Below are positions 3,830 through 56,369 of a DNA stretch of 64,000 nt, piece after piece (position 1 is the first letter of the stretch; each line of letters begins with the position of its first letter). A program made the position numbers and the translations under genes. Source of the stretch: Gammaproteobacteria bacterium (GTDB taxonomy: Bacteria; Pseudomonadota; Gammaproteobacteria; UBA4575); assembly GCA_965243395.1 (NCBI GenBank), contig CBDEUS010000002.1:128001-192000 (forward strand). Reading direction: 5' to 3'. Under the pieces are notes generated by a model. It was given only the letters and a program-made list of their open reading frames with translations. It was not told where the DNA came from and did not search any database.

Positions 3830-4719
3830 CCTATTAGTTGCAAATCATCTCTTAGCACTTCAGCTCTCGGGATTCCGATATTGCTTGCGAGATTTAAATG
3901 CTTAAGAATTTGGATAACTCTCCATCCTGGATCACATTGACCTTTTTCAATGCCAATTTGGGCAGATTCTGGAAATGCATGATGATTGTTGTGCCAACAT
4001 TCCCCATAGGTGGCAACGCCCAGTCCAGGAATATTAGATGCTTGAACATATGCATCTTTAACCCGCCAATTACCAGGCCCGGGATTGTGACAAAAGTACG
4101 TGATTGTCCAGTGACCAACTACGCTGACGGACACTCTTACAAATACACCCCATACAACCCAAGACCAACCTCCAAATAAATATAAAGGAACCGCTAAAAG
4201 TAGTTGGTGGAATCTCCAGGTTTTCTCCATAAATACAAACCATGGATCCTCAGCAATCTCTTTTTCAATGATTATTTTTGGAGGCTTTGCATAGTTAAAT
4301 TTAGATGTTAACTGCCACCAAATATCTAAAAAGAAATTTCTTCGATGGGAGAAAAAGTCATGACACTCATTTTGTCGTTGCGCCCAATCCCTTTGATCAT
4401 GAATACGAATAACGCCAAACGGACCTGCCATGCCAACCAAAACCCCAACATATACAAGTAGTCTTGATGCCCACTTAGGAGATTCAAACGTTCTATGAAT
4501 AAGTAAGCGATGCATTCCAACACTATGCCCAATTAGAAGAGAAAAGTAAGTTGTCACAACAAATAGTGTAAAAGCACTCCAAGTGAAAGTGATGGGGGCT
4601 AATATCACTGCTAGCAATATCATTGATAAATTCCAAGCAGCTTTTTTAGAATCGATACTAATAGTTCCCTCATTAGCTGAAGCATGTGTAGCCTTAATTC
4701 TTAAAACTGGTTTCATCAT
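3826..4719 (-). CDS. acyl-CoA (delta9-like) membrane desaturase
   Basis: His boxes GHSVGMHRLLIH and GECWHNNHHAFP. Confidence 0.85.
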   Translation of the reverse strand: MMKPVLRIKATHASANEGTISIDSKKAAWNLSMILLAVILAPITFTWSAFTLFVVTTYFSLLIGHSVGMHRLLIHRTFESPKWASRLLVYVGVLVGMAGPFGVIRIHDQRDWAQRQNECHDFFSHRRNFFLDIWWQLTSKFNYAKPPKIIIEKEIAEDPWFVFMEKTWRFHQLLLAVPLYLFGGWSWVVWGVFVRVSVSVVGHWTITYFCHNPGPGNWRVKDAYVQASNIPGLGVATYGECWHNNHHAFPESAQIGIEKGQCDPGWRVIQILKHLNLASNIGIPRAEVLRDDLQLIG

Positions 4720-4729
4720 AATCAGTACC

Positions 4730-5710
4730 TCAATTATTTGTAGCTAATGTTGTCTTGGTGTTATCCAAATCATATTGCCCAGGAAGTTTTCTTTTAGTTA
4801 TGGATTTAAGTTCTTTTCTTAATGGCATGTCTTCTGGAAGTTTTATATCCCATACAAGACCAATCTCAGATAAAAACATTAACACCCACCATCCCGGATC
4901 AACTTGATCTTCATAAATACCTAATAACGCAGAGCCGGGATAAGCATGATGATTATTGTGCCAACACTCTCCCATAGTGATCCAACCTGTATATTTAATG
5001 TTATATCCTTGAACGGCGGCACCTTCAACTTCCCAATCACGATGACCTTCGTTATGTGCAAAGTAACCAATTAACCAATGCCCAGTAACAGAAACACTAA
5101 CGCGGCAGCAGATGCCCCAAATAACCCAAGAAATACCTCCAAAATAGAAAAGTAATATTGCCCACGGTAATTGTTGCAACATCCATGTGTTCTCCATGAA
5201 TTTATAAACTTTGTCATTTGAAATTCGTGTTTCTGGCTCAAATAAAGGTGGGTTATCAAGATTCAAATCACAATGTATTTGCCACCATCCATCTTTAAGA
5301 AAACTATTTCCATGACAGAAATAATCATGGCACTCACTTTGTCGCTGTGCCCAATCTCGTATATCGTGTGTTTTAACCATTCCGATTGGCCCAGCCATTC
5401 CTACTAATGTTCCCAAGTGAACAAAAAAATATTCAATCCACTTAGGACATTCATAACTGTTATGTATTAATCTACGATGCATCCCTAATGAATGCCCTAA
5501 ACAAAGCGTTGTTGCAGTGAAAATAATAAATACGAAAAAAGCACTGAGTGAGAACGTTAAATAGCCACCAACTAATGACGAAACATACATACTTGTAATC
5601 CAAATTGATTTTTTGGGTGACCATCTCACTGTTCCATTTATTGGATTCGCGCCATTCGTATCATTAATTCTTGGCACTCCATTATTTGTATTCATCGTTA
5701 CACCCCCCAT
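4730..5710 (-). CDS. acyl-CoA (delta9-like) membrane desaturase, paralogue of the neighbouring gene
   Basis: GHSLGMHRRLIH and GECWHNNHHAYP. Confidence 0.85.
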   Translation of the reverse strand: MGGVTMNTNNGVPRINDTNGANPINGTVRWSPKKSIWITSMYVSSLVGGYLTFSLSAFFVFIIFTATTLCLGHSLGMHRRLIHNSYECPKWIEYFFVHLGTLVGMAGPIGMVKTHDIRDWAQRQSECHDYFCHGNSFLKDGWWQIHCDLNLDNPPLFEPETRISNDKVYKFMENTWMLQQLPWAILLFYFGGISWVIWGICCRVSVSVTGHWLIGYFAHNEGHRDWEVEGAAVQGYNIKYTGWITMGECWHNNHHAYPGSALLGIYEDQVDPGWWVLMFLSEIGLVWDIKLPEDMPLRKELKSITKRKLPGQYDLDNTKTTLATNN

Positions 5711-7811: not shown

Positions 7812-8594
7812 CTATACCCAAGTGCTATTCAAGGTATCCCTAAAATAGTTATTTAAACCCTCAGCTTCAGCCTCAGAGCTTTTTTGAGCAAATTTTGTGT
7901 CCTCTAATCGATTTAATTCAGATTCAATAAACTCATTTAGTACTGTAATCTTTTCTGAAGTATCTTTCTCAAATCCAGATTTTTTTCGCTCTAGCAAGTT
8001 ATTTATGGCACTAAGAAGCTTATTGTCATCAACTAACTTTTCTATTAGTTTGGAAAATTCAGTGGGCACCACGCCATAATCATTTTCTATCCATTGCACT
8101 GCTAATAATGGGCGAAGAACATAAAAATATTTTTTTAAACGAACTTGTTCTTTCTGCAAATGCTCTTTATATGTTCTTTTAGCCATACTTAAATAATGAT
8201 AGGCGCATGAAACTGGTGAAAAACTTTTTGGGAGTAAGTTTTGAAACCCATCAGAAAATTTTTCCTTATCTTTATAGACAATAGGAGACCCTATCCACTC
8301 AATCAAAGGTGGATTAGATTTTCGTAACAATCCGAGTGCCTTTCTCAGATCCCAACCATTTATATCAAGCAAATCATCTATAGGTAATTCGATCACATCT
8401 CTTTTGTGTTCAAGATCAATAGATAGATACCACTCAGGTGGATGTATATAAATAAAACGTACGTCAAAATCACTATCTTTAGATGCAAACCCCCACGCTC
8501 GACTACCCGATTCACAGGCATACAAAACTTGAACATTATATTCATCTTCAATTTCATCAAGCTTTTGAAGGATCTCTTCTTTTCTTTCTATCAT
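7812..8594 (-). CDS. RlaP/YcgL-type DNA polymerase beta superfamily nucleotidyltransferase (RNA-repair associated)
   Basis: YACESGSRAWGFASKDSDFDVRFIY, GWDLRKAL, KKYFYVLRP. Confidence 0.9.
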   Translation of the reverse strand: MIERKEEILQKLDEIEDEYNVQVLYACESGSRAWGFASKDSDFDVRFIYIHPPEWYLSIDLEHKRDVIELPIDDLLDINGWDLRKALGLLRKSNPPLIEWIGSPIVYKDKEKFSDGFQNLLPKSFSPVSCAYHYLSMAKRTYKEHLQKEQVRLKKYFYVLRPLLAVQWIENDYGVVPTEFSKLIEKLVDDNKLLSAINNLLERKKSGFEKDTSEKITVLNEFIESELNRLEDTKFAQKSSEAEAEGLNNYFRDTLNSTWV

Positions 8595-8602
8595 AGGTAT
8601 AT

Positions 8603-8902
8603 CTAGAAAAAAGTTTTAACAGTTAAAACTATTCCTAAGATTGGTAGCAATAAAAGCCAAATAATAAATATAGTGGCAATTAATATATTAGCTAAATACG
8701 AAGACTCCACTCCTTCGTCTTCCCAATCTTCATCTGCACAAATTACAGATACAAAATCTGAATTAAACTCAACATTAGAATGTTTATTATCAATTGCGAT
8801 ATCAATCGCATCTTTTAGTAACATTAAACCATCCTTATTGCCTGCAATATTATCTTCATATCTTTCACTGTAAATTTTTACCCAAGCTGTTTCATTATAC
8901 AT
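8603..8902 (-). CDS. small hypothetical protein with C-terminal TM helix
   Basis: 99-aa ORF tightly packed between rtcB and the nucleotidyltransferase. Confidence 0.6.
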   Translation of the reverse strand: MYNETAWVKIYSERYEDNIAGNKDGLMLLKDAIDIAIDNKHSNVEFNSDFVSVICADEDWEDEGVESSYLANILIATIFIIWLLLLPILGIVLTVKTFF

Positions 8903-8916
8903 TCAACTACTCCTAA

Positions 8917-10113
8917 CTATCCTTTTACACATACAACTTGACGCAAAGTGTGTTCAACGCTTACTAAATCATTTTGGTTTTCCATCACCACATCAATATC
9001 TTTATATGCGCCAGGAATTTCATCTAACACACCTTTGTCTTTACGACATTCAACACCAGCCGTTTGCGCTTCAATATCTTCTTCATTGAAATGGCGTTTT
9101 GCTTTACCACGACTCATACGTCGACCTGCACCATGCGAACATGAACTAAATGATTCAGGGTTACCTTTGCCACGAACAATGTAAGATTTAGCGCCCATAC
9201 TACCCGGAATAATTCCAAGCTCATCCACACCAGCACGAATCGCACCTTTGCGTGTAATGTAAACATTTTCACCAAAATGGTTTTCCATAGACACATAATT
9301 ATGATGACAATTGATGGCTTCTTTAGTGATACCAAATTTCGGTAACACTTTTTTTAATGCATCAATTATCAAGCGCATCATTTCTTTGCGATTTTCCATT
9401 GCGTAATCTTGAGCCCAGTTCACTGCATTTACATAGTCATCAAAGTGCTCTGCCCCTTCAGTAAAATATGCTAAATCTTTATCTGGCAAATTATGAATAT
9501 GCTTTTGCATATCTTTTTGTGCTAATCGAATAAAGAATTGGCCAATAATATTCCCTACTCCACGGCTACCCGAATGAAGCATAATCCATACATCATTATT
9601 TTCATCTAAACAGATTTCAATAAAATGATTCCCACCACCAAGTGTGCCTAGTTGACGCACCCAAGTTTGATAAGGCTTTTTCTGCATCTTTAAAAGTTTG
9701 GGGTGTTTTTCTAGTAAGCGATCTAAACCGTCAGATAAAGGTCGTATAGTTGAATTGCGAGCTTTATCTGACTTATGCATATCAAAACCAACAGGTATTG
9801 CAACTTCAATAGCAGTACGCACTTTGCGTAAGTTATCTGGAAGATCATTAGCATTCATTGAAAGACGCAAAGCATTCATTCCACAACCAATGTCTACACC
9901 AACCGCAGCAGGAATAATTGCACCTTTACATGGAATTACCGAACCCACAGTCGCACCTTTACCAAAGTGCACATCCGGCATCGCCGCAATATGACTATGG
10001 ATAAAAGGCAACTGTGATAGGTTGCATAGTTGCTGGTAGGCTTCGTGCTCTATGTCATCAGTATAGATTTTTACTCGCACATTACCTTTGGTAATGACTT
10101 TTTTAATTGGCAT
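8917..10113 (-). CDS. rtcB: RtcB RNA ligase
   Basis: MPDVHFGKGATVG, VGVDIGCG, GTLGGGNHFIE, HSGSRG, PGSMG, SHGAGR. Confidence 0.97.
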   Translation of the reverse strand: MPIKKVITKGNVRVKIYTDDIEHEAYQQLCNLSQLPFIHSHIAAMPDVHFGKGATVGSVIPCKGAIIPAAVGVDIGCGMNALRLSMNANDLPDNLRKVRTAIEVAIPVGFDMHKSDKARNSTIRPLSDGLDRLLEKHPKLLKMQKKPYQTWVRQLGTLGGGNHFIEICLDENNDVWIMLHSGSRGVGNIIGQFFIRLAQKDMQKHIHNLPDKDLAYFTEGAEHFDDYVNAVNWAQDYAMENRKEMMRLIIDALKKVLPKFGITKEAINCHHNYVSMENHFGENVYITRKGAIRAGVDELGIIPGSMGAKSYIVRGKGNPESFSSCSHGAGRRMSRGKAKRHFNEEDIEAQTAGVECRKDKGVLDEIPGAYKDIDVVMENQNDLVSVEHTLRQVVCVKG

Positions 10114-10393: not shown

Positions 10394-10780
10394 TCAGTTG
10401 TATTTTTTGCGATAGTTACTGGTAAAAGGTTGCGCAACAATTTGATAATCATCTTGATAGCGTATCCTTCCAATTTCCTCACATTTAATCATATCTACAG
10501 CAATACCTTTATTTTGTATTACAGAAAAGAGCTTCCACATAACGCGTATATGCTCTTGTGCACTAGGTTTAAACCAACACAGGCAGCGATAGTTACCGGG
10601 TATCTTCAAAATAGGAGGCACAATTAAATTTCTATCAATCCATCTAAACACATATTGAACTTCTTCATATTCATAATCAGTGAATGAATTGTTGTATTTT
10701 AGCTTGTACGCAAGATGTATTAGGCCTTGTTCATAACGTGACCTCCTGTCTTGGCACAGCCCAATAAATCGTAAGTACAT
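10394..10780 (-). CDS. hypothetical protein
   Basis: 128-aa ORF co-oriented within the RNA-repair module. Confidence 0.65.
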   Translation of the reverse strand: MYLRFIGLCQDRRSRYEQGLIHLAYKLKYNNSFTDYEYEEVQYVFRWIDRNLIVPPILKIPGNYRCLCWFKPSAQEHIRVMWKLFSVIQNKGIAVDMIKCEEIGRIRYQDDYQIVAQPFTSNYRKKYN

Positions 10781-10869: not shown

Positions 10870-12018
10870 CTACCCATCAACTTTGATTTGTACCGTGTCT
10901 TTTAGGATGCCATCCAAACCTCCGAAGACAGTTAGTTTGTCTACTTTGTCAGTGACTTTTTCCAACGTCTCCAACTCTTTCAAGCGCATCAAGGTTGGGT
11001 TGTCATCCATCAATTTCGCAGTGTTCAACAATGAACGTGTAGCTGCAGTTTCTTCACGTCTTTTAATGACATTTGCTTGCGCCACTTTTTCTGCTTGAAC
11101 TACTTGGTTCAAGATATCTTTCATGTCGCCTGGCAAAATGACATCTTTCACGCCAACGCTGCGAATTTCGATACCGTATTCAGATACGTTTGCTTTAACA
11201 GATTCGTAGACGTATTTGTCTAGTTCATCTTTAGTTACAAGCAATGCATCCAAAGTGCGTGTACCAATTACCTGACGAAGTGCAAATTGCATTTCGCGGT
11301 AAATGTATCCAGCAAGGTCTACCAATTCATGACGCGCTTTAATTGGGTCACGAATTTGATATTGAGCTGACAAGTTTGCACGTAGGCTAACTTTGTCTTT
11401 TGTCAAAACCTCTTGACCTTGCACTTCCATGCTTTGCATTCGCAAATCAACTTGTTCAACTATTACGTTGCGGTTGTATTTCCAGTATGCGTACAAGCCT
11501 GGTTGCAATGATTCTTTTAATTCACCATCCACAACCAATAGGCCAACATAGTTGTCTGCAACTTCTGCGATGTAAATTGAATTAATCAATTCACTTGGTA
11601 CTTGTTTCGCACGTGTGTGCACAAACTGACCCACTTTATTTGCAGGCAATGCAAAATCTTCTGCAATATTTTGCACTTCAACTGTCATTTCAACTGGACC
11701 TTTCCAAAATAATTGGCGTGTACCAGGTGCTACAACAGTGCTCAATTGGCCACGTTGATAAACCAATCCAACTTCATATGCGTCGGTTTCAACAACTTGG
11801 AAGTATTTTGTTACTATCTCAGGTTGTTCTTTTACCAAGACATCCACATATTTGTGGTTGAATTGCGCTTCCGTTACATCATAAATCTCGACTTGAATTC
11901 GGCCGAAAATATCGAAATATCGATATACGCCTGGTTCAAGCACTTTTACAATGCTTCGGTTTTTCAAGTAAATTCCTCGCTCATGCTGCGCAATAACAAT
12001 TCTTTTAAATCCGAACAT
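10870..12018 (-). CDS. SPFH/band-7 (slipin) family protein
   Basis: VDLRMQSMEVQGQEVLTKDKVSLRAN, GVKDVILPG, RREETAATRSLLNTAKLM; SD AAGGAG. Confidence 0.9.
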   Translation of the reverse strand: MFGFKRIVIAQHERGIYLKNRSIVKVLEPGVYRYFDIFGRIQVEIYDVTEAQFNHKYVDVLVKEQPEIVTKYFQVVETDAYEVGLVYQRGQLSTVVAPGTRQLFWKGPVEMTVEVQNIAEDFALPANKVGQFVHTRAKQVPSELINSIYIAEVADNYVGLLVVDGELKESLQPGLYAYWKYNRNVIVEQVDLRMQSMEVQGQEVLTKDKVSLRANLSAQYQIRDPIKARHELVDLAGYIYREMQFALRQVIGTRTLDALLVTKDELDKYVYESVKANVSEYGIEIRSVGVKDVILPGDMKDILNQVVQAEKVAQANVIKRREETAATRSLLNTAKLMDDNPTLMRLKELETLEKVTDKVDKLTVFGGLDGILKDTVQIKVDG

Positions 12019-12044
12019 AATTACTCCTTATTAAATAAAGTTTC

Positions 12045-12610
12045 GGGAAATGCTCCACATATAAATTGCGGGTAAACTCCTGTTGTAGTAACGGGTCTAA
12101 AATCTTTCGCATGTCATTGCGATACCCCAACTATCGCTTTGAACATGTTTCAGTCTCTAGACTGGTTATCACAAGCTTGTGATCACGCAGGCAATCTACA
12201 TGTTGCGACATAAAAAACTCTCAACCGTAGTTGAGCTATTTGAAATGTCGCGGGAACATTTCCCTGGTTAGTGTTTTCACACAAAATGCGGATTCGAACC
12301 GCAGGCTTTCGCCATTACCAATGAACAACGTTTAAAGTTGTCGAAAGAACAGGAATCGAACCTGCAACATTTCCGTTATCAGCGGAATGCTCTCCCTTTG
12401 AGCTATCTTTCACTGGTGTATCGGACCACTTACAACTTTGTATACACATTGCAATCACCTTTCGGCTTAGCTTTTGTGCACAGGTCTGAATTCAAGAATC
12501 AGATCCGCTAAGTAAATAAATGTCTCTCAATACTCATGAACTCAATGTTTATAAAACATCGAATTACAATTCTTTAAATACAGGTGACCTGCCCCATTGC
12601 AGGCCACCAT
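12045..12610 (-). ncRNA. unassigned large structured RNA (~570 nt) with tRNA-like domains
   Basis: ORF-free on the sense strand. 12-bp long-range helix 12253-12264/12045-12056, GNRA hairpins, two TTCGA T-arms. Ends approximate. Confidence 0.7.
12338..12412 (-). tRNA. tRNA-Ile(GAU)-like domain embedded in the structured RNA; ends in ACAA, not NCCA
   Basis: TGAAAGA TA GCTC AAAGGGA GAGC A TTCCG CTGATAA CGGAA ATGTT GCAGG TTCGATT CCTGT TCTTTCG A CAA. Confidence 0.7.
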
Positions 12611-12636
12611 TTTTCACGCCCCCTTTCTCCTAAAAT

Positions 12637-13203
12637 TTAACGTCGCTCTTTAGGACATTGTGTTTTCAAGAACGCCATTTGGTCTGCCAAAATTTTGCGG
12701 TTAGATAAAATCAATCCTTCTGCATAATTTGGCTCATATGGAATTCCTAATAATGAAATTCCTATTCTTTCTGCCTCACTAGGCATTAAGCTATCTTTAC
12801 GTGCATTACATGCACGGCATGCTGTAACCACATTCATCCATGTGTTTTTCCCACCACGTGATAGTGGAATCACATGATCGCGCGTTAAGCGATTTCGAGA
12901 ATATTGATCACCGCAATACATGCACATGTAATCATCACGTCGAAACAATCTTGCATTTGTCAGTGCAGGCACTTCACGAATGTGGTCGTCTGATCGCATC
13001 ACACCATGTGTTGCAACAATACTGTTCACATCAATAAATGAACGAGTTCTTGTTCTGCGATTTACACCACCATGAATACGAAAAGAATTTGAACCCATTT
13101 CGTAAACAACTTGTTCTCGTGCATACACTAATGCTGCATATTCCCAGTTCATCCATTCAACTGGACGCCCAGCTACGTCTAAACGCAAAATTAAATTTTC
13201 CAT
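12637..13203 (-). CDS. HNH endonuclease (McrA/HNH_5-like)
   Basis: LFRRDDYMCMYCG...TRDHVIPLSRGG...NVVTACRACNARK. Confidence 0.92.
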   Translation of the reverse strand: MENLILRLDVAGRPVEWMNWEYAALVYAREQVVYEMGSNSFRIHGGVNRRTRTRSFIDVNSIVATHGVMRSDDHIREVPALTNARLFRRDDYMCMYCGDQYSRNRLTRDHVIPLSRGGKNTWMNVVTACRACNARKDSLMPSEAERIGISLLGIPYEPNYAEGLILSNRKILADQMAFLKTQCPKERR

Positions 13204-13263: not shown

Positions 13264-13340
13264 TGGTACGCAGCCCCAGATTTGAACTGGGAATCAAGTA
13301 GGTTTGAGCTACTCAGGTCTTCCAATTGCCTCAGCTGCGC
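13264..13340 (-). tRNA. tRNA-Leu(CAA), short variable loop
   Basis: Hand-folded cloverleaf, loop CT CAA AC, 5-nt V loop, A73, encoded CCA. Confidence 0.88.
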
Positions 13341-13352
13341 AAAAATTTAATT

Positions 13353-13429
13353 TGGTATCCCTGGCAAGATTCGAACTTGCAACATTCTGGTTTTAAGTCA
13401 GATGCGTCTTCCGGTTGCGCCACAGGGAC
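13353..13429 (-). tRNA. tRNA-Leu(UAA), short variable loop
   Basis: Loop CT TAA AA, V loop ATGTT, CCA. Confidence 0.88.
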
Positions 13430-13440
13430 GTAATGTAATT

Positions 13441-13518
13441 TGGTAGCCACCCTCGGATTTGAACCGAGATGCACCATGTTCTAAGCATGGTAGGTATGCC
13501 AATTCCCGTCAGATGGCC
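13441..13518 (-). tRNA. tRNA-Leu(UAG), short variable loop
   Basis: Loop CT TAG AA, V loop TGCAT, CCA. Confidence 0.88.
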
Positions 13519-13561
13519 AAAATTTTTATTTTTATAATTTAGTTATACATAAATTATGATT

Positions 13562-13637
13562 TGGTACCCCTAGTAAGATTCGAACTCACATCAACTGATT
13601 TAGAAGATCAGTGCTTTTCCAATTAAGCTATAGAGGT
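13562..13637 (-). tRNA. tRNA-Arg(UCU)
   Basis: Loop CT TCT AA, CCA. Confidence 0.92.
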
Positions 13638-13659
13638 AAAAAACTAATTGAATTATTTT

Positions 13660-13756
13660 TGGTACCCCAACCAAGATTCGAACTTGGATCTACCACTAAT
13701 CTGGTGCGTGAATCACGGGATATAAATCCGCTGCTTTACCGTTAAGCTATTGGGGC
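13660..13756 (-). tRNA. tRNA-Ile(UAU) with a 27-nt variable region
   Basis: Loop TT TAT AT; V region GATTCACGCACCAGATTAGTGGTAGAT; CCA. Confidence 0.85.
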
Positions 13757-13765
13757 AAAATTTTT

Positions 13766-13839
13766 TGGACACTCCGCTCAGAATTGAACTGAGTCCTCAA
13801 GGGTTGCAACCTTGCGTCTTGCCGATCGACCACGGAGTG
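13766..13839 (-). tRNA. tRNA-Cys(GCA)
   Basis: Loop TT GCA AC, U73, CCA. Confidence 0.9.
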
Positions 13840-13840
13840 T

Positions 13841-13915
13841 TGGCACATCCGGAAAGATTTGAACTTTCATCTTTGGGTTTGGAGGCCAATGTTCTGCCAA
13901 TTGAACTACAGATGC
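13841..13915 (-). tRNA. tRNA-Trp(CCA)
   Basis: Loop CT CCA AA, G73, CCA. Confidence 0.9.
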
Positions 13916-13917
13916 TC

Positions 13918-13993
13918 TGGCTGGGAGTCCTGGACTCGAACCAAGATCTCAAGAGTCAAAGTCTTGCGTCTTAACCAGTTAGACGAATTCCCA
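13918..13993 (-). tRNA. tRNA-Gln(UUG)
   Basis: Loop CT TTG AC, U1-A72, G73, CCA. Confidence 0.92.
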
Positions 13994-14002
13994 TTTTTGT
14001 TT

Positions 14003-14079
14003 TGGCGCGGTTGGAAAGACTCAAACTTTCATCTTCGACTTTCGTAGAGTCGTGCTTTATCCGATTAAGCTACAACCGC
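14003..14079 (-). tRNA. tRNA-Arg(ACG)
   Basis: Loop CT ACG AA; T loop TTTGAGT; CCA. Confidence 0.9.
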
Positions 14080-14087
14080 AAAAACTT

Positions 14088-14163
14088 TGGTAGCCCGAAT
14101 CCGATTCGAACGGATAACTTTCGCTTTGTAAGAACGACACTCTGCCAATTGAGTTATCGGGCT
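14088..14163 (-). tRNA. tRNA-Val(UAC)
   Basis: Loop CT TAC AA, CCA. Confidence 0.92.
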
Positions 14164-14171
14164 AAAATTTT

Positions 14172-14243
14172 TGGTAGTTACGGTTAGAATCGAACTAACA
14201 AGTCCAGGGTTATGAGCCCTAGCCGAAGACCACTTCCGTAACT
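14172..14243 (-). tRNA. tRNA-Met(CAU), initiator-like, with a minimal D arm
   Basis: AGTTACG GAAG TGGT CTTC GG CTAGGG CTCATAA CCCTGG ACTT GTTAG TTCGATT CTAAC CGTAACT A CCA. Confidence 0.8.
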
Positions 14244-14251
14244 AAAGTATT

Positions 14252-14325
14252 TGGTGGATCCAGTAGGAGTCGAACCTACCTCTGCGGGTTAAAAGCCCGC
14301 TGCACAACCGCTATGCCATAGATCC
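14252..14325 (-). tRNA. tRNA-Lys(UUU)
   Basis: Loop CT TTT AA, CCA. Confidence 0.9.
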
Positions 14326-14326
14326 T

Positions 14327-14402
14327 TGGCACGCCTGAAAGGAGTTGAACCTTTATCTCACTGGTTCGAAGCCAGTGGCTCTTCCAATTAAGCTACAGAC
14401 GT
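14327..14402 (-). tRNA. tRNA-Arg(UCG)
   Basis: Loop CT TCG AA, CCA. Confidence 0.9.
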
Positions 14403-14404
14403 AT

Positions 14405-14495
14405 TGGCGGAGAAGAACAGATTCGAACTGTTGAATGAAAAATTTCCATCCCTCCTTTAGCAAAGGAGTGCTTTAAACCACTCAGCCACTTCTCC
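14405..14495 (-). tRNA. tRNA-Ser(GCU)
   Basis: Loop TT GCT AA, long V arm, G73, CCA. Confidence 0.92.
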
Positions 14496-14555
14496 AATTT
14501 ATAATTTGCAGCGCTTCGCGATATTTAATTTGCGAGTAATACCCACTCGCAAGCG

Positions 14556-14631
14556 TGGGGTGAACTACCGGACTCGAACCGGTATCTACCAGATTCACGT
14601 TCTGGGGCTTTGCCATTAAGCTAAGCTCACC
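14556..14631 (-). tRNA. tRNA-His(GUG), with A32/C33
   Basis: G-1:C73 pair; loop AC GTG AA; CCA. Confidence 0.9.
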
Positions 14632-14642
14632 ATAATTATTTT

Positions 14643-14734
14643 TGGCGGAAGGCGGAGGGCACGATCCCCACCAACTAAAAAGCCAGCCACCAGTTTTCAA
14701 GACTGGGACACCCCCACTGGGTGAATCACCTTCC
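14643..14734 (-). tRNA. tRNA-Ser(UGA) with a non-canonical 8/4 fold
   Basis: Acceptor GGAAGGTG/CGCCTTCC (8 bp), T stem GGGG/CCTC (4 bp), D stem CACCC/GGGTG, loop CT TGA AA, long V arm, G73. Confidence 0.8.
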
Positions 14735-14749
14735 TTATATATGTAAATT

Positions 14750-14824
14750 TGGAGCGGATAATCGGATTCGAACCGATATTTATGGTTTGGAAGACCATCA
14801 CTCTGCCAATTGAGTTATACCCGC
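14750..14824 (-). tRNA. tRNA-Gly(UCC)
   Basis: Loop CT TCC AA, U73, CCA. Confidence 0.92.
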
Positions 14825-14829
14825 AGATT

Positions 14830-14907
14830 TGGTCTGAGTGGCTGGATTCGAACCAACGACCTCTCGCTTCCAAGGCGAGTACTCTGCCCAGGCTGAGCTA
14901 CACTCAG
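14830..14907 (-). tRNA. tRNA-Pro(UGG)
   Basis: Loop CT TGG AA, C1-G72, CCA. Confidence 0.92.
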
Positions 14908-14934
14908 AGAATTAATTAAATATAAAAAATTATT

Positions 14935-15010
14935 TGGTGCATCGAGTTGGACTTGAACCAACGACCACACGATTATCGGTCGTGCGCTCTACCAACTGAG
15001 CTATCGATGC
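14935..15010 (-). tRNA. tRNA-Ile(GAU), with C33
   Basis: Loop CC GAT AA, CCA. Confidence 0.9.
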
Positions 15011-15011
15011 T

Positions 15012-15086
15012 TGGTGTTCCTGACCAGAATTGAACTGGCATCTCGAGTTTGAAAGACTCGTGACCTCACCATTAGTCGACAGGAAC
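15012..15086 (-). tRNA. tRNA-Glu(UUC)
   Basis: Loop CT TTC AA, CCA. Confidence 0.9.
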
Positions 15087-15100
15087 TAATAAAATATTTT

Positions 15101-15176
15101 TGGCGGACCCGATCGGACTCAAACCGACATCCCCTTTATCGACAGTAAAGTGCTTTATCAATTAAGCTACGAATCC
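15101..15176 (-). tRNA. tRNA-Asp(GUC)
   Basis: Loop CT GTC GA, G73; D-loop GA with T-loop TTTGA (A19-U56 compensation). Confidence 0.88.
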
Positions 15177-15185
15177 AACTTTTGT

Positions 15186-16047
15186 TTAAAGGTTGAGACT
15201 ATGCCTTTAAAAATCACTCTTTTGTTGAAGTACCTAACGCATTGCTGTGCGATAGTTGCCAACGTGTCCACATTACCCTGGTTGCTCCAGCGATTATGTT
15301 AGTGATCATGACTGCTTTTTTTAAAGTGTAGCGATTCACTTGTCGCGTTAATCTATTCAGCTATTCACTTACCGAGAACCTTGCCAGGCTCTAAACGGAG
15401 GCTATCCGAACGTGCAATGAAGTAACTAAAGTTCTTTGGCTTGCGACCGCAGAATCTTCCATGTTCCCAAGTGGGCATGGACTTAAGTCATTTTCAATTA
15501 ACACCGAGACGCGTCTTTGCGTTTCACCGTATGGTGATCTATGTGGGAGTCGAACCCACGACCTATTGATTCTAAGTCAATCGCTCTACCAATCTGAGCT
15601 AAAAGATCAGGTACTACTAAGACGTGCACGTCTCAGTTGCTTCATTATTTTTTGAATAACGAAATACAACACGCCTTTTGTCTTTCCTCTGCCGAGTACT
15701 TAACCGAATATTCGGATCATGGCTTCCACCCATTTCCCTAATAATCTGCACAACCGCACTTGTCTGCAAAACTCGTACTATGTTGTACTACCTGTTATCT
15801 CTCGTAGTACGCAATCTAGTATCACGGGTTACAGCACTACCTGTATCTTTCTCACGACCCGTATTCCCAAGTAAACCTGGTACGTCAATCGTGGTACTTC
15901 CGCGTATTGCTTGGCTACTATTGCCGATTGAATTACGACAACATGGAGACCAGGCTTGCTTGGTTTGACCTACTTTGAAAAGTGGGCGAAATACCGTAGT
16001 CGTATTCCTTTCCTATCGTTGCCGATAGTTATCGTGCCAAGCCACAT
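15186..16047 (-). ncRNA. large structured RNA, probably GOLLD
   Basis: About 860 nt inside a tRNA array with no sense ORF and many hairpins (CTATCG GCAA CGATAG; CCGAATATTCGG; GTACTAC...GTAGTAC). Size and context match GOLLD. Family call from memory; ends approximate. Confidence 0.65.
15532..15608 (-). tRNA. tRNA with Leu(UAG) anticodon on a class-I body, nested in the GOLLD-like RNA
   Basis: GATCTTT TA GCTC AGATTGGTA GAGC G ATTGA CTTAGAA TCAAT AGGTC GTGGG TTCGACT CCCAC ATAGATC A CCA. Confidence 0.85.
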
Positions 16048-16050
16048 ATT

Positions 16051-16126
16051 TGGTGGAGGATCACGGATTTGAACCGTGCGCCTTCTGTTTGCAATACAGA
16101 CGCTCTGCCAACTGAGCTAATCCCCC
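16051..16126 (-). tRNA. tRNA-Ala(UGC)
   Basis: G3:U70, loop AT TGC AA, CCA. Confidence 0.93.
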
Positions 16127-16135
16127 AAACTTATT

Positions 16136-16210
16136 TGGCTGCGACGGTTGGACTCGAACCAACATTGCTTCGCTTAACAGACGAATGTTCTACCATTGAA
16201 CTACATCGCA
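16136..16210 (-). tRNA. tRNA-Asn(GUU)
   Basis: Loop CT GTT AA, G73, CCA. Confidence 0.92.
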
Positions 16211-16218
16211 ATTATATT

Positions 16219-16295
16219 TGGTGCATCAGGATGGATTCGAACCACCATCGCGTCGGGCTTCAACCGACCGCTCTACCCATTGGAGCTACCGATGC
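16219..16295 (-). tRNA. tRNA-Phe(GAA)
   Basis: Loop TT GAA GC, CCA. Confidence 0.92.
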
Positions 16296-16304
16296 AAAAA
16301 TAAT

Positions 16305-16389
16305 TGGTGGAGAGAGATGGATTCGAACCACCACGCTAATAATTAGCACTGGGTTACAGCCAGCGTGTCTCACCAATGACTGTCTCTCC
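16305..16389 (-). tRNA. tRNA-Tyr(GUA)
   Basis: Loop CT GTA AC, V arm GCTAATTATTAGC, CCA. Confidence 0.88.
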
Positions 16390-16401
16390 TAAAGTTAAAA
16401 C

Positions 16402-16477
16402 TGGAGCTGGTGATAGGCGTCGAACCTACAACCTACTGCTTACAAAGCAGTTGCTCTGCCATTTGAGCTACACCAGC
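16402..16477 (-). tRNA. tRNA-Thr(UGU), first tRNA of the array
   Basis: Loop TT TGT AA, CCA. Confidence 0.93.
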
Positions 16478-32035: not shown

Positions 32036-32110
32036 TGGAGGCCAGGGTCGGAGTTGAACCGACGTATTACACCTTGCTGGGGGTATGCATCACCACTCTG
32101 CCACCTGGCC
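32036..32110 (-). pseudogene. tRNA-Cys-like element with an aberrant anticodon arm
   Basis: GGCCAGG TG GCA GAGTGGTGA TGC ATACC CCCAGCAA GGTGT AATAC GTCGG TTCAACT CCGAC CCTGGCC T CCA. Confidence 0.75.
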
Positions 32111-56293: not shown

Positions 56294-56369
56294 TGGTGGC
56301 CAGGGGCAGAATCGAACTGCCGACACGAGGATTTTCAGTCCACTGCTCTACCAACTGAGCTACCTGGCC
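56294..56369 (-). tRNA. tRNA-Phe(GAA), chromosomal; island integration target
   Basis: Canonical cloverleaf, loop CT GAA AA, CCA. Confidence 0.97.

What the first reader, a model, noticed from the sequence alone, without database searches (positions are those of the whole stretch)
12045..12610. Unrecognised ~570-nt structured RNA with embedded tRNA mimics upstream of the SPFH gene
Seen: a full tRNA-Ile(GAU)-like cloverleaf (12338-12412) ending ACAA, held inside an 8-bp helix AAAGTTGT/ACAACTTT (12432-12439/12334-12341). A second isolated T arm TGCGG TTCGAAT CCGCA (12287-12303) is flanked by GAAA-capped hairpins. A 12-bp helix 12253-12264/12045-12056 closes a ~220-nt domain with further hairpins (GCGACAT/ATGTCGC, CTCAAC/GTTGAG, ATCACAAGCTTGTGAT, CAGTCTAGAGACTG, GCGATA/TATCGC). 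A 10-bp hairpin follows the HNH stop. Inference: an ncRNA or cis-leader that may act as nuclease decoy/sensor, RtcB substrate or HNH partner RNA. I cannot assign it to a known family.
Basis: partly seen in the sequence, partly recalled or inferred. Interest (0 to 1): 0.85.

Follow-up and report, generated by a model that had tools for sequence, protein, structure and literature searches.

The report
Large tRNA-mimic RNA of repair operon
This is a real, widely conserved folded RNA of about 500 bases that carries a tRNA look-alike and sits in front of a stomatin-like gene in an RNA-repair operon; the tRNA look-alike was predicted in 2016, but the big folded RNA around it seems not to have been described.

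Summary
On the minus strand, 12045-12516 (plus a subclade-specific hairpin reaching ~12565) is a multi-domain structured RNA directly upstream of an SPFH/Band-7 gene, followed by RtcB and RlaP. A model of its 5' domain hits 88 of 100 sources at E<=0.01, always upstream of the SPFH gene.

It can be assigned. [quoted passage not shown] It is a mimic: it alone among 25 tRNA hits here lacks an encoded CCA, and the anticodon differs among near-identical relatives. The D and T arms are nearly invariant.

The ~500-nt scaffold has no Rfam 15 family, and none of my literature searches found it; the 2016 paper could not be read. Earlier notes of this scan report the same RNA in other genomes.

Most likely it is the cognate RNA partner or leader of a soluble, vault-like SPFH protein in RtcB repair. 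A role as HNH partner is unlikely.

The parts
12583..12608 (-). Terminator-like hairpin after the HNH stop codon; not part of the conserved RNA
   Evidence: 10-bp stem with 7 G-C pairs and a weak U tail. Relatives have unrelated hairpins or terminators at this place.
12539..12565 (-). Upstream hairpin found only in the window's subclade, after a conserved AAUUGYRAU block; 5' boundary of the transcript unknown
   Evidence: Predicted in the single-sequence fold and in the RNAalifold consensus of 10 close relatives (3 of 13 rows dropped). Arms differ between relatives but stay complementary.
12435..12513 (-). 5' domain: closing helix 12513-12510/12438-12435, conserved AGCGG, hairpin 12506-12498/12490-12483 with a UUC-starting loop, helix 12482-12476/12447-12439 with a 2-nt bulge, inner hairpin
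   Evidence: Covariance model R1 scores 66.3 bits at 12435-12514. Covariation on 58 and 89 sequences. Closing helix tested by own arms against arms of other sequences.
12340..12412 (-). tRNA-like module 1 (b7a-tRNA): complete cloverleaf, anticodon GAU, discriminator A, no encoded CCA
   Evidence: Acceptor, anticodon and T stems covary and the D stem is invariant. Anticodon is hypervariable among relatives.
12325..12341 (-).
   Evidence: helix 8: all 5 pairs change on both sides, 88% paired.
12304..12313 (-). GAAA-capped 3-bp hairpin
   Evidence: helix 9: 95% paired.
12287..12303 (-). Isolated second T arm; in 17 of 89 relatives ARAGORN calls a second, tandem tRNA-like cloverleaf after the first
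   Evidence: helix 10: 99% paired, C-G 14 and U-A 10. for the tandem form.
12253..12264 (-). 5' strand of the 12-bp helix that closes the 3' domain
   Evidence: helix 12: 10 of 12 pairs changed on both sides, 89.3% paired.
12205..12251 (-). Hairpin domain closed by GCGACAU/AUGUCGC, branching off between the two long-range helices
   Evidence: helix 13: 95% paired. The inner hairpin 12235-12220 is flagged terminator-like but the interior varies among relatives.
12191..12203 (-). 5' strand of the second long-range helix
   Evidence: helix 14 (11 pairs counted, 12203-12193/12067-12057): 9 of 11 pairs changed on both sides, 83.8% paired. Two further G-C pairs (12192-12191/12069-12068) read from the sequence.
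12070..12190 (-).
   Evidence: Sequence. The 15-sequence consensus has weak energy (-13.84) but 25 of 31 pairs carry a both-sides change.
12057..12069 (-). 3' strand of the second long-range helix
   Evidence: helix 14 (12067-12057); extension to 12069 read from the sequence.
12045..12056 (-). 3' strand of the closing helix; ends 15 nt before the ribosome-binding site
   Evidence: helix 12.
10870..12018 (-). SPFH/Band-7 ('slipin') gene, 382 aa, with AAGGAG ribosome-binding site at 12029-12024
   Evidence: PF01145 E 7.9e-28. Model pLDDT 81.2. Fold matches stomatin, HflK/C and major vault protein.
8917..10113 (-). RtcB RNA ligase gene
   Evidence: PF01139 E 6.2e-131.
7812..8594 (-). RlaP nucleotidyltransferase gene
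   Evidence: PF10127 E 2.9e-96.
12637..13203 (-). HNH endonuclease gene, 188 aa; a recurrent but non-core neighbour
   Evidence: PF14279 E 1.7e-16. Upstream on the same strand in 18 of 88 loci.

Best explanation
Identity (about 0.9). The region encodes the RNA component of a Band-7/SPFH-RtcB RNA-repair module. [quoted passage not shown] That tRNA-like element is one module of a conserved structured RNA of about 470-550 nt. The modules are a 5' junction domain, a tRNA-shaped module without CCA, a second T arm (a second tandem tRNA-like cloverleaf in 17 of 89 relatives), and a 3' domain closed by about 25 bp of long-range helix. The RNA ends 15 nt before the ribosome-binding site of the SPFH gene.

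Transcription (inferred). It is made as the 5' part of the SPFH-RtcB-RlaP transcript. In relatives that have RtcR, a sigma-54 promoter is placed so that transcription should start at or a few nt before the first helix. This genome has no RtcR and no recognisable promoter. Here it probably reads through from the HNH gene and tRNA array and is processed.

Mechanism (inferred, about 0.4). The folded RNA is the cognate partner of the soluble, ring- or cage-forming SPFH protein, as Y RNA is for Ro60 and vault RNA is for the vault. Its nearly invariant tRNA elbow (D and T loops) would act as the handle that brings tRNA-directed enzymes such as RtcB and RlaP, or damaged tRNAs, to the particle. The freely changing anticodon loop would act as bait or decoy for anticodon nucleases.
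For: Synteny and spread.
- SPFH homologues were collected in 44 genome loci, 80 metagenome loci and 1 viral locus.
- The 5' domain model R1 hits 88 of 100 sources at E<=0.01, all on the SPFH strand and upstream of the gene. About 31 of these were not in the seed.
- The distance from the 5' domain to the ATG is 431-920 nt, median about 527, in 89 RNAs. Of these, 86 have a cloverleaf, which begins about 20-25 nt after the 5' domain in most.

Structure.
- 5' domain: 89.2% paired against 77.2% shuffled, 0 of 500. One pair is U-A in 31 and G-C in 27 sequences with none unpaired (on the model-fitted alignment).
- Whole RNA: 54 of 80 pairs changed on both sides.
- Closing helix of the 5' domain: own arms give a mean run of 5.6 bp against 3.1 for arms of other sequences.

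A mimic, not a tRNA.
- The other 24 Rfam tRNA hits in the window are all followed by CCA; this one is followed by CAA. CCA follows in 5 of 86 relatives.
- There are 36 different anticodon calls, 11 of them with 2- or 4-nt 'anticodons'.
- Entropy is 0.23 bits in the D arm and 0.58 in the T arm, against about 1.4 in the anticodon arm.
- Ten near-identical relatives (96% outside the anticodon arm) carry 6 different anticodons.

Repair context.
- RtcB and RlaP lie in the operon. RtcB is present in 22 of 32 loci with at least 2.5 kb downstream.
- RtcR, RtcA and a PrfH-like gene occur in relatives.
- TGGCAC-N5-TTG lies upstream of the 5' domain in 6 loci; RtcR was confirmed in the 3 of these scanned (L029, L031, L046).

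Protein.
- The SPFH model has N-terminal beta repeats, an SPFH domain and a long helix. Foldseek matches stomatin (8.8e-16), HflK/C and major vault protein over 430-480 columns.

Literature.
- b7a-tRNA next to Band-7 and RtcB is described as predicted and not validated (passages of 10.1101/312249).
Against: - There is no expression data. No RNA run is listed as holding the stretch.
- No promoter was found on the minus strand, so the ends of the RNA are unknown.
- Binding of the RNA to the SPFH protein is pure inference from gene order and analogy.
- There is no terminator between the RNA and the SPFH gene. A purely cis-acting leader is therefore equally compatible with the layout.
- Enterobacterial slipin-RlaP loci (43% identical protein) give no hit to R1 or to tRNA models. 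Only one T arm and a sigma-54-like site are visible there. The full RNA is therefore not obligatory for every SPFH of this type.
- A hypervariable anticodon may simply mean no constraint.
- The whole-RNA structure was derived from the alignment on which it was counted.
Confidence: 0.6

Rival explanations
1. A purely cis-acting sensor leader. The tRNA-like module in the 5' UTR is cut by an anticodon nuclease, or docks a damaged or uncharged tRNA through its T-loop motifs. That event changes stability or translation of the SPFH-RtcB message. No separate RNA-protein particle forms.
For: The RNA abuts the ribosome-binding site with no terminator in the window and in most relatives. In RtcR loci it shares a transcript start with the operon (read). 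The anticodon is hypervariable. A subclade carries a 3-4-codon mini-ORF between the RNA and the SPFH gene, which suggests translational control.
Against: No conserved expression platform was found. The consensus fold does not sequester the ribosome-binding site. The only terminator-like hairpin inside the RNA is not conserved. About 500 nt of conserved ornate structure is far more than known leaders of this kind need. No T-box or other leader family hit at E<=10.
Confidence: 0.25
2. A self-assembling ornate RNA, like GOLLD or ROOL, that forms RNA-only multimers and merely travels with tRNA-rich mobile islands.
For: Its size is similar, it embeds a tRNA as some GOLLD RNAs do, and it lies next to a tRNA array. 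A GOLLD RNA lies 2.6 kb away in the same array. The distribution is sporadic: R1 found in 4 of 151 genomes of the class.
Against: No match to the GOLLD or ROOL models at E<=10. Strict linkage to one protein gene, SPFH, in 88 of 100 sources is not a known property of GOLLD or ROOL; that property is recalled, not tested here.
Confidence: 0.08
3. An ordinary tRNA-Ile gene that happens to lie in a long intergenic region, or decayed debris of the neighbouring tRNA array.
For: A high tRNA score of 64.5 bits. The anticodon loop is identical to that of the host tRNA-Ile(GAU). A 24-tRNA array is adjacent.
Against: There is no encoded CCA, unlike the other 24 tRNA hits. The anticodon is not conserved among orthologous loci. 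Flanking domains are conserved with covariation across 27 to 89 sequences. The host and the array each already have a tRNA-Ile(GAU).
Confidence: 0.03
4. A guide or partner RNA of the upstream HNH nuclease, in the manner of HEARO/IscB RNAs.
For: The HNH gene lies directly upstream on the same strand here and in 18 of 88 loci, including distant ones at 38-43% identity. Its HNH domain matches IscB and Cas9 HNH models weakly and below cut-off.
Against: The HNH gene is absent from about 80% of loci that keep the RNA. The protein is 188 aa and matches only HNH domain models. No HEARO or other family hit. A terminator-like hairpin separates the gene from the RNA.
Confidence: 0.03

Closest known systems
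[quoted passage not shown]
   Same: A tRNA-like non-coding RNA encoded next to a Band-7/SPFH gene and RtcB. All three are present here.
   Different: As relayed, the published object is a tRNA look-alike. Here it is one module of a covarying RNA of about 500 nt with a 5' junction domain, a second T arm and a long-range closed 3' domain. This copy also lacks RtcR and sits after an HNH gene and a 24-tRNA array. Whether the 2016 paper or its supplements already show the flanks could not be checked.
YrlA / bacterial Y RNAs with Ro60 (Rsr) in rsr-yrlBA-rtcBA operons (abstract of PMC4201824 in the listings; passages of PMC7790460)
   Same: A non-coding RNA with a tRNA-like domain, encoded in an RtcB operon beside a ring-shaped scaffold protein. 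Both are proposed as cofactor or nuclease decoy.
   Different: There is no Ro60/TROVE gene in this genome and no Y RNA family hit. The partner is an SPFH protein. This RNA is several times longer than I recall YrlA to be (its length was not seen in any call) and holds a complete cloverleaf.
GOLLD (RF02032) and ROOL large ornate RNAs
   Same: Several hundred nt, highly structured, near or embedding tRNAs, on mobile DNA. A GOLLD copy lies in the same window.
   Different: No model match. This RNA is tied to a specific downstream protein gene.
Vault particle: major vault protein plus vault RNA
   Same: The SPFH protein model aligns with major vault protein over its beta repeats, SPFH 'shoulder' and long helix. 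Both are paired with a small or medium non-coding RNA.
   Different: This is a fold-level resemblance only, TM about 0.4. No assembly or RNA binding has been shown, and the RNAs are unrelated.

Membership tests
b7a-tRNA (Burroughs and Aravind 2016) | [quoted passage not shown] | tested here: met
   ARAGORN tRNA-Ile(gat) at 12340-12412; Rfam tRNA 64.5 bits.
b7a-tRNA (Burroughs and Aravind 2016) | Encoded adjacent to a Band-7/SPFH domain protein | tested here: met
   PF01145 E 7.9e-28 for 10870-12018; the cloverleaf lies about 320 nt upstream on the same strand.
b7a-tRNA (Burroughs and Aravind 2016) | In an RtcB RNA-repair neighbourhood | tested here: met
   RtcB 8917-10113 and RlaP 7812-8594 on the same strand.
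b7a-tRNA (Burroughs and Aravind 2016) | The authors' own alignment or definition, including any flanking conservation | not testable with these tools
   The paper is not held. Supplements are closed.
Genuine tRNA (RF00005) | Cloverleaf above the Rfam gathering score | tested here: met
   64.5 bits against 29.
Genuine tRNA (RF00005) | Encoded 3' CCA, as in the other tRNA genes of this window | tested here: not met
   The other 24 tRNA hits in the window have CCA; this one has CAA.
Genuine tRNA (RF00005) | Anticodon conserved among orthologous loci, with a 7-nt loop | tested here: not met
   36 different anticodon calls in 86 relatives, 11 with 2- or 4-nt 'anticodons'. Six anticodons among 10 near-identical copies.
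Genuine tRNA (RF00005) | Aminoacylation and use in translation | not testable with these tools
   Needs experiment.
Y RNA / YrlA | Match to a Y RNA family model | tested here: not met
   No such hit at E<=10 in 11900-12750 or at gathering score in 8 homologous loci.
Y RNA / YrlA | Ro60/TROVE partner gene | tested here: not met
   PF05731 has no match in the own genome, which is 100% complete.
GOLLD / ROOL | Match to the Rfam covariance models | tested here: not met
   No hit at E<=10. The GOLLD model does hit elsewhere in the window, 15190-15677 at 153.5 bits.
T-box or other tRNA-sensing leader | Family model match and a terminator/antiterminator or RBS-sequestering platform | tested here: not met
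   No hit. No conserved terminator before the SPFH gene.
HEARO / IscB guide RNA | Constant association with an IscB-type nuclease, and a family model match | tested here: not met
   HNH upstream in 18 of 88 loci. The 188-aa protein matches only HNH domain models. No RNA family hit.

The most novel reading that the evidence does not exclude
The b7a-tRNA is only the visible tip of a previously undescribed class of large ornate bacterial RNA of about 500 nt. Together with a soluble, vault-like SPFH cage protein it would form a bacterial ribonucleoprotein comparable to Ro-Y RNA or the vault. Its tRNA-shaped module, with an invariant elbow and a fast-changing anticodon, would serve as bait that detects or absorbs anticodon-nuclease attack and couples it to RtcB repair.
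Probability: 0.3. Interest if true: 0.8.

Novelty: new variant of a known kind. Interest (0 to 1): 0.6.

Why it matters
RtcB repair operons are widespread, but their accessory parts are largely unexplained. This analysis gives a testable anatomy for one of them. It is a covarying RNA of about 500 nt, found in at least 88 loci (isolate genomes, genome bins labelled Gamma- and Alphaproteobacteria, and unlabelled metagenome contigs). It has an invariant tRNA elbow and a hypervariable anticodon, and it is fused to the message of a vault-like SPFH protein.

If the RNA and the protein form a particle, this would be a third family of scaffold-plus-RNA machines beside Ro-Y RNA and vaults. It would also give a concrete handle on how bacteria sense or survive tRNA-cutting toxins.

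The family is missing from Rfam 15. Adding a model would correct many genome annotations that now call these cloverleafs odd tRNA genes or suppressor tRNAs.

Tried and rejected
- Rfam at gathering score and at E<=10 gave only tRNA for the region. The same held for 8 homologous loci.
- Phage DNA search found only a 45-nt tRNA match. Phage protein search found no SPFH homologue. One viral contig holds a 43% identical SPFH; R1 gave only a 13.9-bit match there, inside the SPFH gene.
- Twenty-three of 24 other genomes of the same family (14 of them same genus), plus own, lack the region by DNA search; one other-family genome has it.
- Sequencing runs: no RNA holder listed. I did not lay reads.
- Promoter scan: nothing on the minus strand. 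My hand-read sigma-70 candidates around 12520-12545 either fall below the tool's threshold or would start inside the first helix, so I dropped them.
- A short helix ACCA 12417-12414 with UGGU 12320-12317, enclosing the tRNA-like module, looks plausible by eye in many rows. Both sides are too conserved and the alignment too shifted to test, so it is left as 'possible'.
- A link between the window's anticodon arm and the host tRNA-Ile: only the 7-nt loop is shared. Not informative.
- PADLOC: no defence-system hit for SPFH, RtcB, RlaP or the two small ORFs. The 128-aa and 99-aa ORFs have no family and no homologue in 125 related loci.
- Literature searches found no description of a large RNA around b7a-tRNA. 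The term b7a-tRNA occurs in one held paper only.
- Burroughs and Aravind 2016 could not be opened by PMC id, DOI or PubMed id.

Full report
WHAT IS THERE

The finding lies in the 618-nt gap between an HNH gene (12637-13203) and an SPFH/Band-7 gene (10870-12018). Both are on the minus strand. Further downstream on the same strand lie a 128-aa ORF, RtcB (8917-10113), a 99-aa ORF and RlaP (7812-8594). The window belongs to a complete 2.58-Mb bacterial genome. The closest relatives of the SPFH gene are labelled Gammaproteobacteria.

ARAGORN and Rfam both call a tRNA-Ile(GAU) cloverleaf at 12340-12412 on the minus strand, at 64.5 bits. No other Rfam 15 family matches 11900-12750 at E<=10. The minus strand folds much better than shuffles, z -8.4 against -5.5 for the plus strand.

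IT IS CONSERVED, AND ALWAYS IN FRONT OF THE SPFH GENE

A DNA search of 41 genomes found one distant copy in another family. That copy lies in front of a 67% identical SPFH gene, shares long sequence blocks with the window, and carries a different anticodon, UGU.

I then collected SPFH homologues: 44 loci from genome contigs, 80 from metagenomes and 1 viral.
- Of 103 upstream regions of at least 500 nt, 96 contain a cloverleaf.
- A 72-position covariance model of the 5' domain, built from 58 sequences, hits 88 of 100 sources at E<=0.01. Every hit is on the SPFH strand and upstream of the gene. About 31 of these sources were not in the seed.
- The distance from the 5' domain to the start codon is 431-920 nt, median about 527.
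- In a sample of 151 genomes of the class, the 5' domain occurs in 4, so the distribution is sporadic.

STRUCTURE

The 5' domain (12513-12435) contains these parts:
- a closing helix;
- a conserved AGCGG;
- a hairpin whose loop begins UUC;
- a bulged helix enclosing a variable hairpin.

On 58 sequences, 89.2% of cells pair against 77.2% in shuffles (0 of 500 as high). One pair is U-A in 31 and G-C in 27 sequences with none unpaired. Another is C-G in 32 and U-A in 25. The model-fitted alignment of 89 distinct sequences agrees, but it leans towards the model.

The closing helix was tested by comparing each sequence's own two arms with arms from other sequences. The mean contiguous run is 5.6 bp against 3.1, with 41 different arm sequences. 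In the window this helix has only 4 bp.

A whole-RNA alignment of 27 relatives gave an RNAalifold structure of 80 pairs in 14 helices.
- 92.7% of cells pair against 81.1% in shuffles.
- 54 pairs change on both sides against 30.8 expected.
- No shuffle of 500 reaches these values, and all slid registers fall to 36-46%.
- The structure was derived from the same alignment, so the slid control is generous.

It continues, past a branch hairpin (GCGACAU/AUGUCGC, 95% paired), into a second long-range helix (12203-12191 with 12069-12057). Of the 11 pairs counted there, 9 change on both sides; the two outermost G-C pairs are read from the sequence.

The isolated T arm (12303-12287) and the GAAA-capped hairpin before it are conserved.

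A covarying local hairpin takes its 3' strand instead.

The interior (12190-12070) is variable. A 15-sequence consensus prefers a long irregular rod, with weak energy but 25 of 31 pairs carrying a both-sides change.

THE CLOVERLEAF IS A MIMIC
- Each of the other 24 Rfam tRNA hits in the window is followed by CCA. This one is followed by CAA.
- Among 86 relatives there are 36 different anticodon calls. They include A-starting ones, UUA, and 11 with 2- or 4-nt 'anticodons'.
- Per-position entropy is 0.23 bits in the D arm and 0.58 in the T arm. It is about 1.4 in the anticodon arm and 1.6 in the acceptor stem, and the stems covary.
- In a tight clade of 10 copies that are 96% identical outside the anticodon arm, 6 different anticodons occur.

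The elbow is therefore what selection keeps, and the anticodon is free or driven to change.

In 17 of 89 relatives a second, tandem tRNA-like module follows the first. The window's clade has only a T arm at that place.

CONTEXT
- RtcB is present in 22 of 32 loci with at least 2.5 kb downstream, and RlaP in 6 of them.
- Relatives add RtcR, RtcA or a PrfH-like gene.
- In 6 loci a TGGCAC-N5-TTG site lies upstream of the 5' domain. RtcR was confirmed in the 3 of these that one search scanned (L029, L031, L046). Counting from the -12 element in three loci I read (L029, L046, L030), the start falls at or 3-5 nt before the first helix strand (my reading).
- The window's genome has neither RtcR nor Ro60/TROVE. 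The scan found no minus-strand promoter here.
- A terminator-like hairpin follows the HNH gene. A subclade-specific hairpin (12565-12539) and a conserved AAUUGYRAU block precede the core. The true 5' end in this organism is therefore open.
- HNH homologues lie upstream on the same strand in 18 of 88 loci. That is recurrent but not core.

The SPFH protein matches no membrane-protein family, and I saw no hydrophobic N-terminal stretch in its sequence; no membrane-helix predictor was run. The model (pLDDT 81.2) has N-terminal beta repeats, the SPFH domain and a long helix. It matches stomatin, HflK/C and, over 430-480 columns, major vault protein.

WHAT IS KNOWN

The discussion of bioRxiv 10.1101/312249 (passages read) says that Burroughs and Aravind (2016) predicted a 'band 7-associated tRNA' encoded next to a Band-7 protein and RtcB. 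It adds that this RNA has not been validated, and proposes redundancy with the tRNA-like Y RNA YrlA.

I recall the 2016 abstract naming SPFH/Band-7 modules with 'a novel tRNA-like molecule'. The paper itself is not held, and supplements are closed.

PMC13086221 (one passage) places a Pseudomonas aeruginosa SPFH gene inside the rtc locus.

Six full-text searches found no description of a large structured RNA around the tRNA-like element.

Earlier notes of this scan report the same RNA in other genomes, including Pseudomonas and cut-down E. coli copies. They are not independent evidence. I checked the E. coli claim in part. There is no tRNA or R1 hit, but a sigma-54-like site and one T arm are visible.

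MECHANISM

Shown: a conserved, covarying multi-domain RNA fused to the SPFH-RtcB operon, with a tRNA-shaped module whose elbow is fixed and whose anticodon is not.

Inferred: co-transcription with the operon, binding to the SPFH oligomer, recruitment of tRNA-directed enzymes, and a bait or decoy role for the anticodon loop.

The main rival is a purely cis-acting damage-sensing leader. The layout cannot separate the two.

VERDICT

The RNA is assignable to the predicted b7a-tRNA class, of which it shows a much larger architecture than the literature I could read describes.

Noticed in passing
window 13264-16477 (minus strand): An array of 24 tRNA genes (ARAGORN), all with encoded CCA, directly upstream of the HNH gene. 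The genome has 61 tRNA calls in all, 27 of them in this window. The 34 outside carry 32 different anticodons, only CAU more than once. Similar arrays precede the RNA in about 10 related loci, for example L050, L059, L064, L068, L094, L104, L108, L119, L124 and L125.
   Followed up: partly
window 15190-15677 (minus strand): A GOLLD RNA (RF02032) at 153.5 bits, just above the gathering score of 150, inside the tRNA array. It embeds tRNA-Leu(tag) at 15532-15608.
   Followed up: no
window 13663-13756 (minus strand): A 94-nt Rfam tRNA hit at 55.3 bits that ARAGORN did not call. It may be a long-arm or interrupted tRNA in the array.
   Followed up: no
window 32036-32110 and 56294-56369 (minus strand): A tRNA-like gene with a 4-nt 'anticodon' (cagc) whose acceptor stem nearly equals that of tRNA-Phe(gaa) 24 kb away. 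Both have CCA. It could be a paralogue with an 8-nt anticodon loop.
   Followed up: no
L048, L052-L054, L056, L057, L059, L010, L015: between the closing helix and the SPFH start: An extra conserved element of about 110 nt. It has a ribosome-binding site, a 3-4-codon mini-ORF and a following stem, and is absent from the window. An earlier scan note describes a leader-peptide attenuator before such operons in Flavobacteriaceae.
   Followed up: no
L132 (Citrobacter) 4547-4994; L133 (E. coli) 4469-4997: Enterobacterial slipin-nucleotidyltransferase loci have an unannotated upstream gap of 448-529 nt. It holds a TGGCAC-N5-TCGCA / TGGCAC-N5-TGGCA site and one T arm, but gives no hit to tRNA models or R1. 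The gap is present at >=80% coverage in 1629 of 5426 complete E. coli genomes.
   Followed up: partly
window 10870-12018 (protein): No match to a membrane-protein family, and I saw no hydrophobic N-terminal stretch in the sequence; no membrane-helix predictor was run. The model shows two N-terminal beta-repeat units before the SPFH domain. Foldseek aligns it with major vault protein over 430-480 columns.
   Followed up: partly
window 10394-10780 and 8603-8902 (minus strand): Two small ORFs (128 and 99 aa) lie inside the operon. They have no family in Pfam, NCBIfam or PADLOC and no homologue in 125 related loci.
   Followed up: partly
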